UHGV virus genome: UHGV-0121369
Length of the DNA: 25,410 bases
DNA from: a virus
Direction: 5' to 3' (one strand)
The notes under the pieces were generated by a model. The model had not been told where the DNA came from. It ran no database searches and saw nothing but the letters and a program-made list of their open reading frames with translations. The position numbers and the translations under genes were made by a program. This document shows positions 16,715-21,681 of the stretch, one piece after another; position 1 is the stretch's first letter; the number at the start of each line of letters is the position of its first letter.

Positions 16715-17523
16715 TGAACCTCGAATCAATCGCTAAATACTTTGCGCCTAAATCACCGATGTTCAGTGACTCTCCTCGCGCAACCGCATCAGACAGTCTC
16801 ACCGGCACTGACGTTATGGCGGCGCTTGGCCTTGCTGGCCACAAGTGCGGGTTTGGTTTCGATCTTTACCTCTCGAAAATCGGCATTAGCAGCCCAGATA
16901 TAGCACTGGAGAGACTCTATGAGCAGGCACGTAAGTTATCAGGTAAATTCAGAGCACTGTCTGAACTCGATGAATCAGCTCGGTCAGGCGTGCTTAAGGT
17001 TCTCTGCGCTTTTGCATACCAGGATTATTCAAGAAGTGCTGCCAGCACTCGAAAATGTGATTGCTGTGATGGTGGCGGATTTACAGAGGCGCAAGTGTTT
17101 ACCAACAAGGTCTCATACCCATGGGGGAAACCGCCTTACTGGTCGAAAATGTCGCGTGCCGTTCGCCCAAGCGACTGGGAGAGCTGGACACAGGCGCGTG
17201 AGGTGGTGCGAGTTAAGTGCAAGCCGTGTAACGGAAAAGGCGTTATCAGCAATTCGTGTCGCTGCCATGGCAAAGGTAAGGTGCTGGACAAGGCAGAAAG
17301 CGATCGCCAGGGCGTTCCAGTAATGAAAGCCTGCGACCGCTGCGGTGGTAGAGGTTACGCCAGGCTTAAGTTCTCAACGGTAATTGAGGGCGTTAATACT
17401 GTTGCGGAGATAAAGAAAACGGCGGCATATGAGCAACTTCAGCCGCTATTTGAGGAGTTGGTCGCCGAATGCCATAAACAGGAGTCTATGGCTGATTCCA
17501 TTCTCTCAAAAGTAACGAGATGA
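16714..17523 (+). CDS. Q: Late-gene antiterminator Q-like protein
   Basis: 269 aa immediately upstream of the late promoter/terminator region and lysis cassette; multiple Cys clusters (CDCCDGGG, CKPCNGKG, CRCHGKGK, CDRCGGRG) consistent with a zinc-binding Q-type regulator; SD GAAGGAAG. Confidence 0.65.
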   Translation: MNLESIAKYFAPKSPMFSDSPRATASDSLTGTDVMAALGLAGHKCGFGFDLYLSKIGISSPDIALERLYEQARKLSGKFRALSELDESARSGVLKVLCAFAYQDYSRSAASTRKCDCCDGGGFTEAQVFTNKVSYPWGKPPYWSKMSRAVRPSDWESWTQAREVVRVKCKPCNGKGVISNSCRCHGKGKVLDKAESDRQGVPVMKACDRCGGRGYARLKFSTVIEGVNTVAEIKKTAAYEQLQPLFEELVAECHKQESMADSILSKVTR

Positions 17524-17644: not shown

Positions 17645-17680
17645 AAGCCCGAGGTTAACGCCTTGGGCTTTTTTATTTGC
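17645..17680 (+). terminator. Intrinsic terminator (tR'-like, first)
   Basis: AAGCCCGAGG-ttaacg-CCTTGGGCTT followed by TTTTTATTT. Confidence 0.7.
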
Positions 17681-17753: not shown

Positions 17754-17780
17754 CCAGCCTGTCGCTGGCTTTTTTATTTG
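17754..17780 (+). terminator. Intrinsic terminator (second, tandem)
   Basis: GCCAGC-ctgtc-GCTGGC followed by TTTTTTATTT; shares the tail GCTTTTTTATTTGCG with the first terminator. Confidence 0.7.
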
Positions 17781-19138: not shown

Positions 19139-19609
19139 ATGACCCAGCATATTGGCGTAAAACTGATTAACGCCTTTCTGATGACGAGACAGGCATATAA
19201 CGATTTTCGTGGCTGGCAGCTTCCTGCCGGAGAAAACGGCGAGGATGAAGGCTATCTGGTTGAATATCTTGATGGCGGAAAACCTAACACCGATCGCTTT
19301 GATGGCTACGTTAGCTGGAGTCCAAAAGAAGTATTCGAAAAGGCTTATCGTCCGGTATCAGGGCTAAGTTTCGGCCTTGCCATTGAAGCGCTCAAGTTGG
19401 GGAATAAAGTTGCCCGTGCTGGCTGGAATGGTAAGGGGATGTATCTGTTCATTATCCAGCAGAATGCTTGGGGGTTTGAGTGTGACCTGGACGGAGTTAA
19501 TGGCCTTGTGACGCTGCCATGCATTTGCATGAAGACAGCGGACGATAAATTAGTACCGTGGCTGGCTAGTCAGACTGATGTTCTGTCCGAAGACTGGCAA
19601 ATCATTTAA
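19139..19609 (+). CDS. DUF2829-like protein (Tad2-like fold candidate) with an N-terminal extension
   Basis: 156 aa; C-terminal half LSFGLAIEALKLGNKVARAGWNGKGMYLFIIQQ fits the F..AL.ALK.G.KV.R..W..K signature I associate with DUF2829; located after the lysis cassette. Confidence 0.55.
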   Translation: MTQHIGVKLINAFLMTRQAYNDFRGWQLPAGENGEDEGYLVEYLDGGKPNTDRFDGYVSWSPKEVFEKAYRPVSGLSFGLAIEALKLGNKVARAGWNGKGMYLFIIQQNAWGFECDLDGVNGLVTLPCICMKTADDKLVPWLASQTDVLSEDWQII

Positions 19610-19757
19610 CCATGTAGGCATTACAAAGCCCATCTACGGGTGGGCTTGATAATGGATATCCCCGCAAGCGGATAATATGGTTTTTATCCCCTGCGGGGTA
19701 TAAATAGGACTTGCAAATGCGGGGTTTATCATTTTGAAGCCAATGACAGGAGTGGGT

Positions 19758-19916
19758 ATGACACTTGAAGAACGAATTACAGCTTTAGAAAAGGCAGTCA
19801 CATGCATTGTGAATGAAAAGCAAGAGGACACAACTGCCTTTGTTGATAAAATTATTCAGGAGATGCGTCAGTCCTCAGTATTTTCGCAGCTTCTAGAAAG
19901 GCCTCGTGAAGATTAG
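19758..19916 (+). CDS. Possible small protein (52 aa)
   Basis: ATG at 19758 preceded by AGGAGTGGGT; 3' end overlaps the convergent minus-strand ORF; uncertain whether both are real. Confidence 0.3.
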   Translation: MTLEERITALEKAVTCIVNEKQEDTTAFVDKIIQEMRQSSVFSQLLERPRED

Positions 19917-20112
19917 GGATGTTTTTAACACGTTCAGGATCAAGTTTTTCCTGGACAAATTTTGTCAACCCATCATATAAATCTTTGTTCGGGTACAGCT
20001 CATTAACTGCTTTAATTAGTGCTCCAAAAGCAAGCTGATTTGCTATTTTTTGTACGGCTAATTCTTTTTCTAACTGCTCAACCTTTTCTTTTAAACCAAA
20101 ACCTTCTGACAT
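19852..20112 (-). CDS. Hypothetical accessory protein (86 aa), reverse-oriented in the late region
   Basis: Good SD (AAGGAA) before ATG; AT-rich; predicted helical; not Bor-like (no lipobox). Confidence 0.45.
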   Translation of the reverse strand: MSEGFGLKEKVEQLEKELAVQKIANQLAFGALIKAVNELYPNKDLYDGLTKFVQEKLDPERVKNIPNLHEAFLEAAKILRTDASPE

Positions 20113-20241
20113 TTTTGATTCCTTATTCTGAGGTAATCAGCCATTACTCTTTATTAAGTGCGCCAGTGTCCCACCACCGACGGGCTGAATGCCTACATTA
20201 ACCAGGGTTAAGACGAAACAACACCCTGATATTCAAACAGT

Positions 20242-20266
20242 AGCCGCCATCACGCGGCTTTTTTAT
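20242..20266 (+). terminator. Intrinsic terminator
   Basis: AGCCGC-catcac-GCGGCT followed by TTTTTTAT. Confidence 0.7.
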
Positions 20267-20304
20267 GCGCATCGCACGCGCACATCGTAGAAAGTCTTTC
20301 AGCT

Positions 20305-20358
20305 GTGAGCCTGGGCAAACCGTTAACTTTCGGCGGCTTTGCCGTGCGACAGGCTCAC
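20305..20358 (+). promoter_or_regulatory. Nested stem-loop in the 5' leader of the 20378 gene
   Basis: Outer 9-bp inverted repeat GTGAGCCTG ... CAGGCTCAC enclosing inner GGCAAA ... TTTGCC; ends about 8 nt before the SD (AAAAGGAA) of the downstream gene. Confidence 0.4.
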
Positions 20359-20377
20359 GCCTAAAAGGAAATAAATC

Positions 20378-20845
20378 ATGGGTCATAAAATTATCACGTT
20401 GTCCGGCGCGGCGACGGATGTTCTGTATGCGCTGTTTTTCCGTGGCGCGCTTCAGTCTGGTGATCTGCCAGCCAAATCTGGTGCTGCTGAGCTTCTAGAG
20501 CTGGGATTCGCTGAAACACGCCATACCGCGACGGAGTATCAAAAGGAAAATTATTACACCTTCCTGACCGCTGAAGGGCAGGAGTTCGCCATTAAGCACC
20601 TGGTGAATACGCGCTTTGGTGTTCCTGCTGGTGGTTATATTGGTGGCTCTGTAAATATTCAGTTTGGCCGGATAGAGAACGACCCACGAAAAGGCTATGC
20701 CATCAATGTTGGCATCTGTCCCGAAATTAAGACCGGCGTGAAGCTATCCCCTGAAATGGTAAAAGCGATCTCAGATGTTGTGTCCGAGGAACTGAAGAAG
20801 AGTCTTCGGCCAGGTGGCACGATATGGTCAGCGCTGTCGCGATGA
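20378..20845 (+). CDS. Hypothetical accessory protein (155 aa)
   Basis: SD AAGGAA; Gly-rich middle (FGVPAGGYIGGSVNIQFG); sits between an intrinsic terminator and cos; no family recognised. Confidence 0.55.
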   Translation: MGHKIITLSGAATDVLYALFFRGALQSGDLPAKSGAAELLELGFAETRHTATEYQKENYYTFLTAEGQEFAIKHLVNTRFGVPAGGYIGGSVNIQFGRIENDPRKGYAINVGICPEIKTGVKLSPEMVKAISDVVSEELKKSLRPGGTIWSALSR

Positions 20846-20879
20846 ATGGACGTTTAGACGTCCAAATGGGTTGGTTTTC

Positions 20880-21130
20880 GTGTGTCGATGTGTAAGTGAT
20901 AATTATTATCGTTTGCGGGTCCTTTCCGGCGATCCGACAGGTTACGGGGCGGCGTCCGCGCAGATTCTCGCTATTTATGAAAATTTTCAGGCATTTGCCG
21001 TTTCCGTTCTTCTTCTCGCTAATTCATTGTTTTAACTGTAAACACCCCCTGAAAAGAAAGGAAATGATAAGCCTTAAAAACGGCTAAATAGCCAGAGGGC
21101 GTTTCCTTTCTCTGTTTTTGTGTATGGAGT
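20880..21130. other. cos: cos site (cosQ-cosN-cosB) of lambda type; predicted cohesive-end site about 20947-20958
   Basis: Aligns by eye with the lambda genome ends as recalled: here ...CGATCCGACAGGTTACGGGGCGGCGTCCGCGCAGATTCTCGCTATTTATGAAAATTTTC..., then R3-like CGTTTCCGTTCTTCTTC, CCCTGAAAAGAAAGGAAA, and CGTTTCCTTTCTCTGTTTTTGT before the Nu1 ATG. Confidence 0.85.
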
Positions 21131-21135
21131 GAGCT

Positions 21136-21681
21136 ATGGAGGTCAACAAAAAGCGTCTTTCTGAAATATTTGGGGTCAGCGTGCGAACCATTCAGAACTG
21201 GCAGGATCAGGGAATGCCTGTAGCACGTGGCGGTGGAAAAGGTAATGAGGTCCTCTATGAATCTTCCGCGGCTATCGAATGGTATTCCGCACGCGACGCG
21301 GCGATTGAGAATGAGAAATTACGGAAGGAGGTGGAAGACCTTCGTCTTGCATCGGAATCCGACCTTCAGCCTGGTACGATTGACTATGAGCGTCACCGCC
21401 TCACCCGAGCGCAGGCAGATGCCCAGGAACTAAAAAATGCAAAAGATTCCGCTGAGGTGGTGGAAACCGCATTCTGCACGTTCGTGCTGTCGCGGATGGC
21501 CGGAGAAGTAGCCAGCATTCTTGATGGAGTTCCTCTGTCGGTTCAGCGGCGCTTCCCGGAGCTGGAAAACCGACATATTGATTTCCTCAAGAAGGACATC
21601 ATTAAAGCCATGAACAAAGCAGCTGCGCTGGATGAAATAATACCGGGGTTGCTGAGTGAATATATCGAACAGTCAGGTTAA
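21136..21681 (+). CDS. nu1: Terminase small subunit (lambda Nu1)
   Basis: 181 aa, near-identical to lambda Nu1 as recalled (MEVNKK..., [31 protein letters not shown]). Confidence 0.95.
   Translation: MEVNKKRLSEIFGVSVRTIQNWQDQGMPVARGGGKGNEVLYESSAAIEWYSARDAAIENEKLRKEVEDLRLASESDLQPGTIDYERHRLTRAQADAQELKNAKDSAEVVETAFCTFVLSRMAGEVASILDGVPLSVQRRFPELENRHIDFLKKDIIKAMNKAAALDEIIPGLLSEYIEQSG

What the first reader, a model, noticed from the sequence alone, without database searches (positions are those of the whole stretch)
20242..20845. Terminator-insulated accessory gene (155 aa, unknown) with a structured 5' leader just upstream of cos
Seen in sequence: a strong intrinsic terminator (20242-20266) is followed by a nested stem-loop (outer 9-bp arms GTGAGCCTG / CAGGCTCAC, inner GGCAAA / TTTGCC) ending about 8 nt before the SD of a 155-aa ORF with a Gly-rich middle and no family I recognise; a TGGACGT-ttag-ACGTCCA palindrome follows its stop. 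Inference: an independently regulated accessory gene whose leader structure may control translation or mRNA stability; the position (between lysis and cos) is a typical accessory-gene slot.
Basis: partly seen in the sequence, partly recalled or inferred. Interest (0 to 1): 0.45.

Follow-up and report, generated by a model that had tools for sequence, protein, structure and literature searches.

The report
Conserved pseudoknotted leader RNA for phage accessory genes
The small gene just before the phage's DNA-packaging site is an ordinary, dispensable-looking accessory gene. The "hairpin" in front of it is one copy of a widespread, intricately folded RNA leader, absent from the RNA family database, that sits before many unrelated accessory genes in related phages and probably controls their translation.

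Summary
The ~105-nt leader (20266-20370) is not private to this gene. It recurs at 70-100% identity before at least 15 unrelated gene types: in at least 120 IMG/VR contigs, 33 phage records, 122 of 5,426 complete E. coli genomes and 41 Enterobacterales species. Most copies directly follow a terminator of variable sequence.

Covariation supports hairpin A, helices P1-P4 and two pseudoknots. On 77 copies, 93.9% of pair cells are paired (35-47% in slid controls) and 25 of 39 pairs show compensatory changes (0/500 shuffles). The SD lies in closing helix P1. Nothing in Rfam 15 matches it.

No promoter is evident, and the gene lies downstream of Q and the lysis genes, so expression is probably by late-operon read-through. 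ORF155 belongs to the family of phi80 ORF x171.28 (PHROG 16910). It combines a winged-helix-like N-domain with a C-terminal "PGG" motif shared by a highly mosaic protein family.

The leader is a new cis-regulatory RNA motif; what triggers it is unknown.

The parts
20242..20265 (+). Intrinsic terminator: stem-loop 20242-20259 plus T-tract 20260-20265
   Evidence: Consensus scan. 109 of 147 copies of the leader have a terminator-like hairpin and T-run in this position, with at least 6 unrelated stem sequences.
20266..20282 (+). Hairpin A (UGCGC-AUCGCAC-GCGCA). Its loop UCGCAC (20272-20277) is the 5' partner of pseudoknot PK1. The sharp left boundary of the conserved element is at G20267.
   Evidence: Stem covariation CG->UA. 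PK1: 97-98% of cells paired and 5 of 6 pairs with compensatory changes.
20283..20295 (+). Purine-rich linker. GAAAGU (20290-20295) is the 5' partner of pseudoknot PK2.
   Evidence: Class-specific complementarity to the apical loop: GAAAG/CUUUC, GAGAG/CUCUC, CGAUAAC/GUUAUCG, CGAGACA/UGUCUCG, UCAGAA/UUCUGA, CCACAGAG/CUCUGUGG.
20295..20302 (+). Anti-SD strand of helix P1: UCUUU 20295-20299, plus A20301 and G20302
   Evidence: Pairs with AAAGG 20364-68 and C20361-U20362 in the minimum-free-energy fold and in the RNAalifold consensus. A compensatory variant CCUUA/UAAGG occurs in a divergent copy.
20304..20359 (+). Long hairpin. P2: 20304-13 with 20350-59. P3: 20314-19 with 20338-43. P4: 20320-24 with 20332-36. 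Apical loop 20325-31; its ACUUUC (20326-31) is the 3' partner of PK2. Internal loop GUGCGA 20344-49 is the 3' partner of PK1.
   Evidence: P2 is wholly replaced by a complementary pair of arms in divergent classes. P3 shows 6 pair types at one position.
20361..20377 (+). 3' strand of P1 containing the SD (AAAGG 20364-68; SD AAGGA 20365-69), then an A/U-rich spacer
   Evidence: CUAAAAGG is at least 90% conserved in a set that was not selected for it, and a start codon follows within 10-20 nt (mostly 17-20) in all 122 distinct copies.
20378..20845 (+). ORF155. N-domain aa 1-81 (20378-20620) is winged-helix-like. Aa ~79-121 is a Gly-rich, predicted disordered linker. The C-terminal helices carry the motif ...ELKKSLRPGGTIWSAL.
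20847..20864 (.). Palindrome TGGACGT-ttag-ACGTCCA. It is the first bases of the cos-flanking block, not part of the gene cassette.
   Evidence: Homology with HK225 and mEp237 starts exactly here, and HK225 has the block directly after Rz without ORF155. No T-run follows it.
20897..20958 (+). cos-proximal block: Fur-box-like palindrome 20897-20911, a cosQ-like sequence from ~20917, and the predicted 12-nt cohesive end GGGCGGCGTCCG at 20947-20958

Best explanation
ORF155 is the cargo of a recurrent late-operon accessory-gene cassette. Its 5' end is a conserved, portable leader RNA of ~105 nt.

The leader folds into hairpin A plus a long hairpin (P1-P4), locked by two pseudoknots. PK1 joins the hairpin-A loop to the internal loop between P2 and P3. 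PK2 joins the purine linker to the apical loop. The SD of whatever gene follows is the 3' strand of the closing helix P1, next to PK2.

The RNA is most likely made when Q-modified RNA polymerase reads through the terminator that abuts it. The fold then sets or gates 30S access to the SD, and probably also protects the 5' end of the downstream message.

Shown here: the fold, its conservation, its strand specificity, its position relative to start codons, and the diversity of its cargo.

Inferred: late-operon transcription, translational control, and the direction of that control. The default is probably a damped or 'off' state that some factor relieves.

The protein is a non-essential-type accessory protein of unknown activity. 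It has a variable N-terminal module, here winged-helix-like, on a conserved C-terminal helix-PGG module.
For: Distribution and portability:
- The leader is found at 92-98% identity before different genes in unrelated phages, and at 70-80% identity in Klebsiella and Enterobacter phages.
- It occurs in at least 120 IMG/VR contigs with 67 distinct cores, 122 of 5,426 E. coli genomes and 41 Enterobacterales species.
- A start codon follows every one of 122 distinct copies, and these encode 111 distinct proteins of many types.

Structure:
- The RNAalifold consensus and the single-sequence fold both give P1-P4 and hairpin A.
- On the 114-sequence alignment A1, 95.2% of cells are paired against 33-47% in slid controls, and covariation exceeds all 500 shuffles.
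- On the 77 covariance-model hits (alignment A5), 93.9% are paired, 25 of 39 pairs have compensatory changes (shuffled 9.6 +/- 1.7, 0/500), and the covariation score is 0.173 against 0.086.
- PK1 was not in the model, yet it is 97% paired with 5 of 6 pairs compensatory.
- PK2 complementarity changes class by class.
- Divergent copies replace P2, PK1, PK2 and even the SD/anti-SD pair with new complementary sequences.
- G-U pairs and the model scores (134 bits forward; in other copies ~22 bits for the reverse strand of the same site) fix the strand as +.

Transcription context:
- Q, tR'-like terminators and the lysis genes lie upstream on the same strand.
- No promoter-like site lies near the leader.
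- In phi80 the homologous region is in the Q-dependent late operon (PMC11364771).
Against: - No expression, processing or translation data were available.
- Secondary structure alone makes the SD cheap to open: 1.3 kcal/mol here and a median of 2.8 across 120 leaders, against 3-11 for other genes of the window. Without the tertiary contacts the leader might not repress at all and could instead be a constitutive, insulated ribosome-binding site.
- Whether P1 and PK2 coexist or exclude each other could not be modelled.
- The promoter scan is a strict sigma-70 consensus scan and cannot exclude a weak or activator-dependent promoter.
- About a quarter of the copies lack the upstream terminator.
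- The cargo genes share no function that would point to a signal.
Confidence: 0.6

Rival explanations
1. The leader is mainly an RNA-processing and stability element. RNase III cuts the long, irregular duplex, or RNase E cuts the U-rich spacer. This segments the long late transcript and leaves hairpin A as a protective 5' cap. Any effect on translation is secondary, as at the lambda N-leader and the T7 R sites.
For: P1-P4 form ~28 bp of quasi-continuous duplex with internal loops directly upstream of the SD. A single-stranded U-rich tract lies between two hairpins, the terminator and hairpin A. One copy carries an extra hairpin inserted into the linker without loss of the rest of the element (L126).
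Against: The two covarying pseudoknots and the conserved SD/anti-SD pairing are not needed for a simple RNase site. The hairpin-A loop is constrained by PK1, not merely by the need to form a hairpin. No cleavage data exist.
Confidence: 0.15
2. The leader is a ligand- or protein-responsive switch (riboswitch-like). A small molecule, an ion, or a host or phage protein stabilises or disrupts the double-pseudoknot fold and thereby closes or opens P1.
For: The fold is complex, with two long-range pseudoknots. Unpaired or junction nucleotides are highly conserved. The switching helix carrying the SD is marginally stable. This architecture is typical of translational riboswitches (established knowledge).
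Against: The downstream genes are functionally unrelated: glycosyltransferase, HNH, Rha, TerB and mosaic J-like proteins. No ligand is suggested, and no binding data exist.
Confidence: 0.2
3. ORF155 is a classical autonomous moron. It would be transcribed from its own promoter in the lysogen, insulated from upstream transcription by the terminator, with the leader tuning its expression.
For: The terminator lies directly upstream. The gene sits in a hotspot where lysogen-expressed genes such as taiEcA occur (PMC11364771).
Against: There is no promoter-like site between 20113 and 20377. The conserved RNA structure starts at the end of the T-tract, leaving no room for one, and the sequences upstream of the leader are unrelated among copies. 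No terminator follows the gene.
Confidence: 0.1
4. The conservation reflects a DNA-level role. The element would be a homology patch or linker that lets phages swap the downstream cargo by recombination, with no RNA function.
For: Identity is 92-98% across otherwise unrelated flanks. Both boundaries are sharp: at G20267 and at the start codon. The cargo proteins are mosaic, with a conserved 3' end that could serve as the second homology patch.
Against: Compensatory changes in six helices, G-U tolerance on one strand only, and divergent copies that keep the fold but not the sequence all show selection on an RNA structure. The two roles are not mutually exclusive.
Confidence: 0.05

Closest known systems
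phi80 ORF x171.28 (gp49; orf66 of He et al. 2024) and N15 gp59-like proteins (PHROG 16910, 17079, 4365)
   Same: The same leader, the same position immediately before cos, and an N-terminal 81 aa that are 88% identical. They lie in the non-essential orf62-66 region of the Q-dependent late operon (PMC11364771).
   Different: The middle and C-terminal parts differ (242 aa against 155 aa). The function of either protein is unknown. The 'Fur-regulated' label could not be traced to any feature of the gene.
Lambda N-leader (nutL-N) RNase III hairpin and T7 RNase III sites
   Same: A large irregular hairpin in a phage polycistronic transcript, directly upstream of an SD, that influences translation or stability (established knowledge).
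   Different: No sequence relation. This element has two covarying pseudoknots and is portable between many genes and phages. RNase III cleavage is untested.
SD-sequestering pseudoknot regulators: SAM-II and preQ1-II/III riboswitches, and the mRNA pseudoknot operators of rpsO (S15), the alpha operon (S4) and T4 gene 32
   Same: A compact pseudoknotted 5' leader in which the SD is part of the fold, and a marginal closing helix.
   Different: No match to any Rfam 15 model. No ligand or protein partner is known. The cargo genes are heterogeneous.
Pistol self-cleaving ribozyme (topology only)
   Same: A 5' hairpin whose loop forms a 6-bp pseudoknot with an internal loop of the neighbouring helix, connected by an A-rich linker (own knowledge).
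   Different: Here the pseudoknot partner is on the 3' strand of the internal loop. The element is twice as long, has a second pseudoknot, and the Pistol model does not hit it.
Lambdoid morons (lambda bor and lom, HK97 gene 15)
   Same: A dispensable extra gene inserted between essential late-gene modules, flanked by a terminator.
   Different: A moron is defined by its own promoter upstream and a terminator downstream. Here the terminator is upstream, no promoter is evident, and a conserved structured leader replaces the promoter.

Membership tests
Rho-independent terminator | G+C-rich hairpin immediately followed by a U-tract | tested here: met
   6-bp stem (5 G-C pairs), 6-nt loop, then TTTTTTAT at 20242-20267.
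Moron (autonomous phage accessory transcription unit) | Own promoter upstream of the gene | tested here: not met
   No sigma-70-like site in 20113-20377. The conserved fold starts at the T-tract, and upstream sequences are not conserved among copies.
Moron (autonomous phage accessory transcription unit) | Own terminator downstream of the gene | tested here: not met
   The palindrome 20847-64 has no T-run and belongs to the cos flank. Tail-region copies such as HK639 gene 13 do have a downstream terminator.
Any Rfam 15 RNA family | Covariance-model score at or above the gathering threshold | tested here: not met
   Best hits on the leader score 13-17 bits against thresholds of 41-70 bits.
Translational riboswitch | Conserved structured domain supported by covariation | tested here: met
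   25 of 39 pairs show compensatory changes (0/500 shuffles), and two pseudoknots are supported.
Translational riboswitch | SD or start codon inside a helix of the conserved fold | tested here: met
   AAAGG 20364-68 pairs with UCUUU 20295-99. A compensatory CCUUA/UAAGG variant exists.
Translational riboswitch | Specific ligand binding that changes the fold | not testable with these tools
   Requires in-line or SHAPE probing.
Translational riboswitch | Coherent downstream gene functions that point to a ligand | tested here: not met
   The cargo includes a glycosyltransferase, HNH, Rha and TerB proteins, J-like mosaic proteins and small ORFs.
RNA thermometer | SD helix melts between about 30 and 42 C | tested here: not met
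   The predicted P(unpaired) of the four paired SD bases stays at or below 0.17 from 20 to 45 C. This is in silico and ignores the pseudoknots.
RNase III processing site | About 20 bp or more of quasi-continuous duplex, and cleavage by RNase III | tested here: inconclusive
   The duplex length criterion is met. Cleavage is not testable here.
PHROG 16910 / phi80 x171.28 family | Significant profile match over the protein | tested here: met
   E = 1.2e-103 over aa 1-154. The N-domain is 88% identical to phi80 gp49.
PF09327 tail-tip fibre (J-like) domain | Pfam match at or above the gathering score | tested here: not met
   ORF155 has no Pfam hit at E <= 1. Several other cargo proteins behind the same leader do match.
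Winged-helix (PadR/MarR-like) DNA-binding domain | Fold match of a confident model | tested here: inconclusive
   AlphaFold2 pLDDT is ~55-72 for aa 10-80. The best Foldseek PDB hits are PadR and MarR proteins, but with E = 0.05-0.3.
Tai/Ati tail-assembly-inhibition system of phi80 | Sequence similarity to TaiEcA or AtiEcA | tested here: not met
   No significant match to any window ORF or by tblastn of the window.

The most novel reading that the evidence does not exclude
The leader is a new class of sensory or catalytic RNA, either a riboswitch-like switch or a self-processing element. It would gate a hypervariable slot of late-expressed accessory and counter-defence genes in temperate Enterobacterales phages, responding to a cellular or infection-state cue. 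Its portability would let any newly captured gene inherit that control.
Probability: 0.25. Interest if true: 0.85.

Novelty: new variant of a known kind. Interest (0 to 1): 0.68.

Why it matters
The slot just before the packaging module, and a second slot in the tail module, are where lambdoid phages keep fast-evolving accessory, defence and counter-defence genes. A single portable RNA with a double pseudoknot heads many of these genes. This suggests a common, so far undescribed layer of post-transcriptional control for them.

It also gives a sequence and structure signature for finding such cargo genes in prophages: covariance model R1 scores 42-137 bits on true copies. It corrects several database annotations where CDS starts were placed inside the leader. 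It provides a well-defined RNA with natural compensatory variants that is ready for structural and genetic testing. Copies exist in common laboratory strains such as DH5alpha and DH10B, which carry a phi80 remnant, and in E. coli Nissle 1917.

Tried and rejected
- Rfam 15, on 2.4 kb and again on 165 nt at E <= 10: nothing credible. There is only a 17-bit isrK-like match that is essentially the terminator.
- RNA thermometer: the predicted SD pairing hardly changes from 20 to 45 C.
- Strong SD occlusion by secondary structure alone: rejected, because the opening cost is only 1.3-2.8 kcal/mol.
- Own promoter: none found by scan. By eye there is no sigma-54, sigma-E or extended -10 motif, no RfaH ops/JUMPstart element (GGCGG is present but the spacing and following bases do not fit), and no conserved leader peptide (the ATG at 20265 is not conserved).
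- Fur box in the leader: none. The only Fur-like site is downstream of the gene, near cos.
- Pfam, NCBIfam, PADLOC and PDB sequence searches for ORF155: all empty.
- Tai/Ati homology: none.
- tblastn with the C-terminal motif and with HK639 gp13, to link the family to bona fide J proteins: only 3-5 hits, none in a gene annotated as J.
- Literature searches by sequence strings and by keywords: no description of the element found.
- A simple cognate versus non-cognate score for PK2 was only weakly discriminating (11.3 against 9.7), because the two commonest classes cross-pair through G-U. The class matrix and contingency table were more informative.
- Eight pattern hits in unrelated phyla were chance matches, and the covariance model rejected them.

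Full report
**Observation.** The window is a lambdoid phage nearly identical here to mEp213 and mEp043 (99.9% over 20100-20871). All described features are present.
- An intrinsic terminator lies at 20242-20259 followed by TTTTTTAT.
- A nested hairpin joins GTGAGCCTG 20305-13 to CAGGCTCAC 20350-58, and GGCAAA 20314-19 to TTTGCC 20338-43.
- The SD is AAGGA 20365-69 and the ATG is at 20378.
- The ORF encodes 155 aa and has a Gly-rich middle.
- The palindrome TGGACGT-ttag-ACGTCCA lies at 20847-64.
- A lambda-type cos follows, with a cosQ-like block and the predicted cohesive end GGGCGGCGTCCG at 20947-58. This is by alignment with the annotated phi80 cos.
- Nu1 starts at 21136.

**The leader is a portable module.** BLAST shows that only ~115 nt, running from the 3' arm and T-tract of the terminator to the start codon, recur at 92-98% identity in phages whose flanking genes are different.
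- In HK639 it sits between the major tail gene and gene 13.
- In mEp390 it precedes a 485-aa glycosyltransferase.
- In Fraca, FSL SP-016 and AsXd-1 it precedes 257-297-aa proteins.
- phi80 carries it before ORF x171.28.
- Klebsiella and Enterobacter phages and 'Elizabethkingia' phage EKP1 have copies that are 70-80% identical.

Wider scans show how common it is.
- 122 of 5,426 complete E. coli genomes carry it, unannotated. These include phi80-remnant laboratory strains and Nissle 1917.
- A scan of one genome per species, anchored only on hairpin A and the SD, found 41 true copies, all in Enterobacterales.

The left boundary is sharp, at GCGCAUCGCACGCGC, and the right boundary is the SD/ATG. 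A start codon follows every copy, 10-20 nt (mostly 17-20) after P2. A terminator-like hairpin plus T-run abuts 109 of 147 copies, with at least six unrelated stem sequences.

**Structure.** The single-sequence fold and the RNAalifold consensus agree. They give:
- hairpin A, 20266-82;
- P1, where UCUUU 20295-99 pairs with AAAGG 20364-68, which is the SD;
- two further pairs, then P2, P3 and P4.

Two long-range pairings emerged from the alignments.
- PK1 joins the hairpin-A loop UCGCAC (20272-77) to the conserved 6-nt internal loop GUGCGA (20344-49). Natural variants are UCGUAC/GUACGA, UCGCAU/AUGCGA, UCUCAC/GUGAGA, UCACAC/GUGUGA and CGCUC/GAGCG.
- PK2 joins the purine linker GAAAGU (20290-95) to the apical loop ACUUUC (20326-31). 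Class-specific variants are GAGAG/CUCUC, CGAUAAC/GUUAUCG, CGAGACA/UGUCUCG, UCAGAA/UUCUGA, CCACAGAG/CUCUGUGG and CCGCAGA/UCUGCGG.

Pair counts support the whole structure.
- On the 114-sequence alignment A1, 95.2% of cells are paired against 33-47% when partners are slid, and every covariation measure exceeds the shuffles.
- That set was selected with a pattern that fixed P2 and the anti-SD. I therefore built covariance model R1, without the pseudoknots, and searched the independently gathered loci.
- All true copies score 60-137 bits. The eight chance pattern hits score nothing, and the reverse strand scores ~22 bits.
- Three further divergent copies appeared at 42-49 bits.
- On the resulting 77-sequence alignment, 93.9% of cells are paired. 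25 of 39 pairs carry compensatory changes (shuffled 9.6 +/- 1.7; 0/500). The covariation score is 0.173 against 0.086. PK1 is 97.4% paired with 5 of 6 pairs compensatory.
- Divergent classes replace P2 entirely (GAUGACCCUUG/CAAGGUUCAUC; AAAGCGAUCCUG/CAGGUUCGCUUU). One changes the SD helix itself (CCUUA/UAAGG). All keep the architecture.

The fold is therefore real, specific to the + strand, and elaborate. Rfam 15 has no match. Text searches for the sequence and for related keywords found no description of it.

**How it is probably transcribed.**
- Q (PF03589, 16714-17523) is followed by two tR'-like terminators (17648-76 and 17754-80).
- Holin, lysozyme, Rz, a Tad2-like gene and then the cassette all follow on the + strand.
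- The scan finds no promoter-like site between 20113 and 20377.
- The structured RNA begins at the end of the T-tract, and the upstream sequences differ among copies.

I infer read-through by Q-modified polymerase. This matches phi80, where the homologous region lies in the Q-dependent late operon and is non-essential (PMC11364771). In a Pseudescherichia prophage a divergent copy also heads the lysis cassette, in the order terminator, leader, TerB-domain gene, holin. This fits a role as a late-operon leader.

**How it probably works.** The SD is always the 3' strand of P1, and P1 abuts PK2 on one continuous strand. By secondary structure alone P1 is marginal. Opening the SD costs 1.3 kcal/mol here and a median of 2.8 kcal/mol across 120 leaders. 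That is less than for other genes of the window, and the predicted pairing does not melt between 20 and 45 C.

Any strong effect must therefore come from the tertiary fold or from a bound factor. This is the design of a switching helix, but it is equally compatible with a constitutive, insulated ribosome-binding site. I could not model whether P1 and PK2 coexist. The three helical segments are of similar length (about 10-12 bp each), which would allow a closed fold. That is inference only.

My best reading is translational gating or tuning, plus 5' protection, of whatever cargo follows (confidence about 0.6). The alternatives are a processing element, a ligand- or protein-responsive switch, an autonomous moron, and a pure recombination linker. 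The covariation speaks strongly against the last as the sole role.

**The protein.**
- Pfam, NCBIfam, PADLOC and PDB sequence searches give no match.
- It matches PHROG 16910 (E = 1e-103).
- Aa 1-81 are 88% identical to phi80 gp49. They recur in Klebsiella phages (56-60%), and, as matches confined to this domain, in large Salmonella/Escherichia phages of ~155 kb (39%) and Erwinia jumbo phages (40-50%). Foldseek's closest viral matches include stand-alone proteins of about 77-106 aa.
- AlphaFold2 gives a medium-confidence helix, helix, beta-hairpin, helix domain. Its best fold matches are PadR and MarR winged helices, though weakly (E = 0.05-0.3). The middle is disordered and the C-terminus is helical.
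- The C-terminal ...LRPGGTIW... motif is shared by at least 54 of the 111 distinct proteins found behind the leader. Their N-terminal and middle modules are shuffled, and several contain FN3 and PF09327 tail-tip-fibre segments.

This is a highly mosaic accessory family, and its function is unknown. He et al. deleted the phi80 homologue (orf66) individually, and the passages I read report a titre defect only for the orf64 deletion. The window has no Tai or Ati homologue.

**Other corrections.** The palindrome after the stop is the start of the cos-flank block, which HK225 carries without ORF155. The cassette therefore ends at the stop codon. The 'Fur-regulated protein' label on homologues probably derives from a Fur-box-like 7-1-7 palindrome at 20897-20911. 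That site lies next to cosQ and is not a promoter of this gene (the consensus is from my own knowledge).

**Verdict.** The gene is an ordinary member of an uncharacterised accessory family. The leader is a new, widespread, double-pseudoknotted cis-acting RNA motif whose trigger and direction of control remain to be tested.

Noticed in passing
window 19139-19609 (+): A 156-aa protein with a Tad2-like (Thoeris anti-defence 2) domain (PF11195, E = 2.8e-26; PHROG 872) lies directly after Rz in the late operon. It is a candidate anti-defence gene in the same hotspot.
   Followed up: partly
window 19852-20112 (-) and 19734-19916 (+): An 86-aa minus-strand ORF (PHROG 21164) interrupts the plus-strand late operon and overlaps a 60-aa plus-strand ORF (PHROG 28630). 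The layout resembles the 'noncontiguous operon' of taiEcA/atiEcA in phi80, but there is no sequence similarity to Tai or Ati.
   Followed up: partly
window 20897-20911: TGATAATTATTATCG is a Fur-box-like 7-1-7 palindrome with one mismatch. It is the only such site in the window (0.1 expected by chance) and lies just upstream of cosQ. Equivalent sites occur in mEp213 (TGATAATCATTATCA) and phi80 (TGATAATTATTATCA). It is probably the origin of the 'Fur-regulated protein' label on neighbouring ORFs.
   Followed up: partly
window 20184-20264 (+): A weak isrK-like Rfam match (17.6 bits against a threshold of 50; E = 0.84) ends in the terminator. The similarity is mostly the terminator plus an AUUCAAAC stretch. 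It is not credible as an sRNA on this evidence.
   Followed up: partly
L181 (HK639) 17247-17383 and L001 2507-2628: HK639 carries two copies of the leader with different PK1 sequences. UCGCAC/GUGCGA precedes tail-region gene 13, and UCUCAC/GUGAGA precedes rha after the lysis genes. Loci L159, L150 and L142 also have a canonical and a divergent copy 1-4 kb apart.
   Followed up: yes
L181 17344 (HK639_73 rha); L008 1615 (CobraSix gp76); L007 1495-1794 (phi80 gp50); window 20198-20386 (-) and 20265-20498 (+): Database CDS starts for the two Rha-family genes lie inside the leader RNA, so they are probably over-extended. The antisense or overlapping ORFs across the leader (phi80 gp50 and the 62-aa and 77-aa ORFs of the window) are probably spurious.
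   Followed up: partly
window 17648-17676 and 17754-17780 (+): Two tandem tR'-like intrinsic terminators lie between Q and the holin gene. Each is followed by TTTTTTATTTGCG, which resembles the T-tract/AUGCGC junction at the leader.
   Followed up: no
window 20947-20958: The predicted cohesive end GGGCGGCGTCCG differs from the GGGCGGCGACCT of phi80 in its last four bases. HK225 shares the window's version.
   Followed up: no
L159 4103-4522 (-), with neighbours up to 6661: In a Pseudescherichia prophage, a HicA/HicB toxin-antitoxin pair and a ParA-like ATPase lie just upstream of a terminator-leader-TerB-domain gene unit that precedes the holin.
   Followed up: partly
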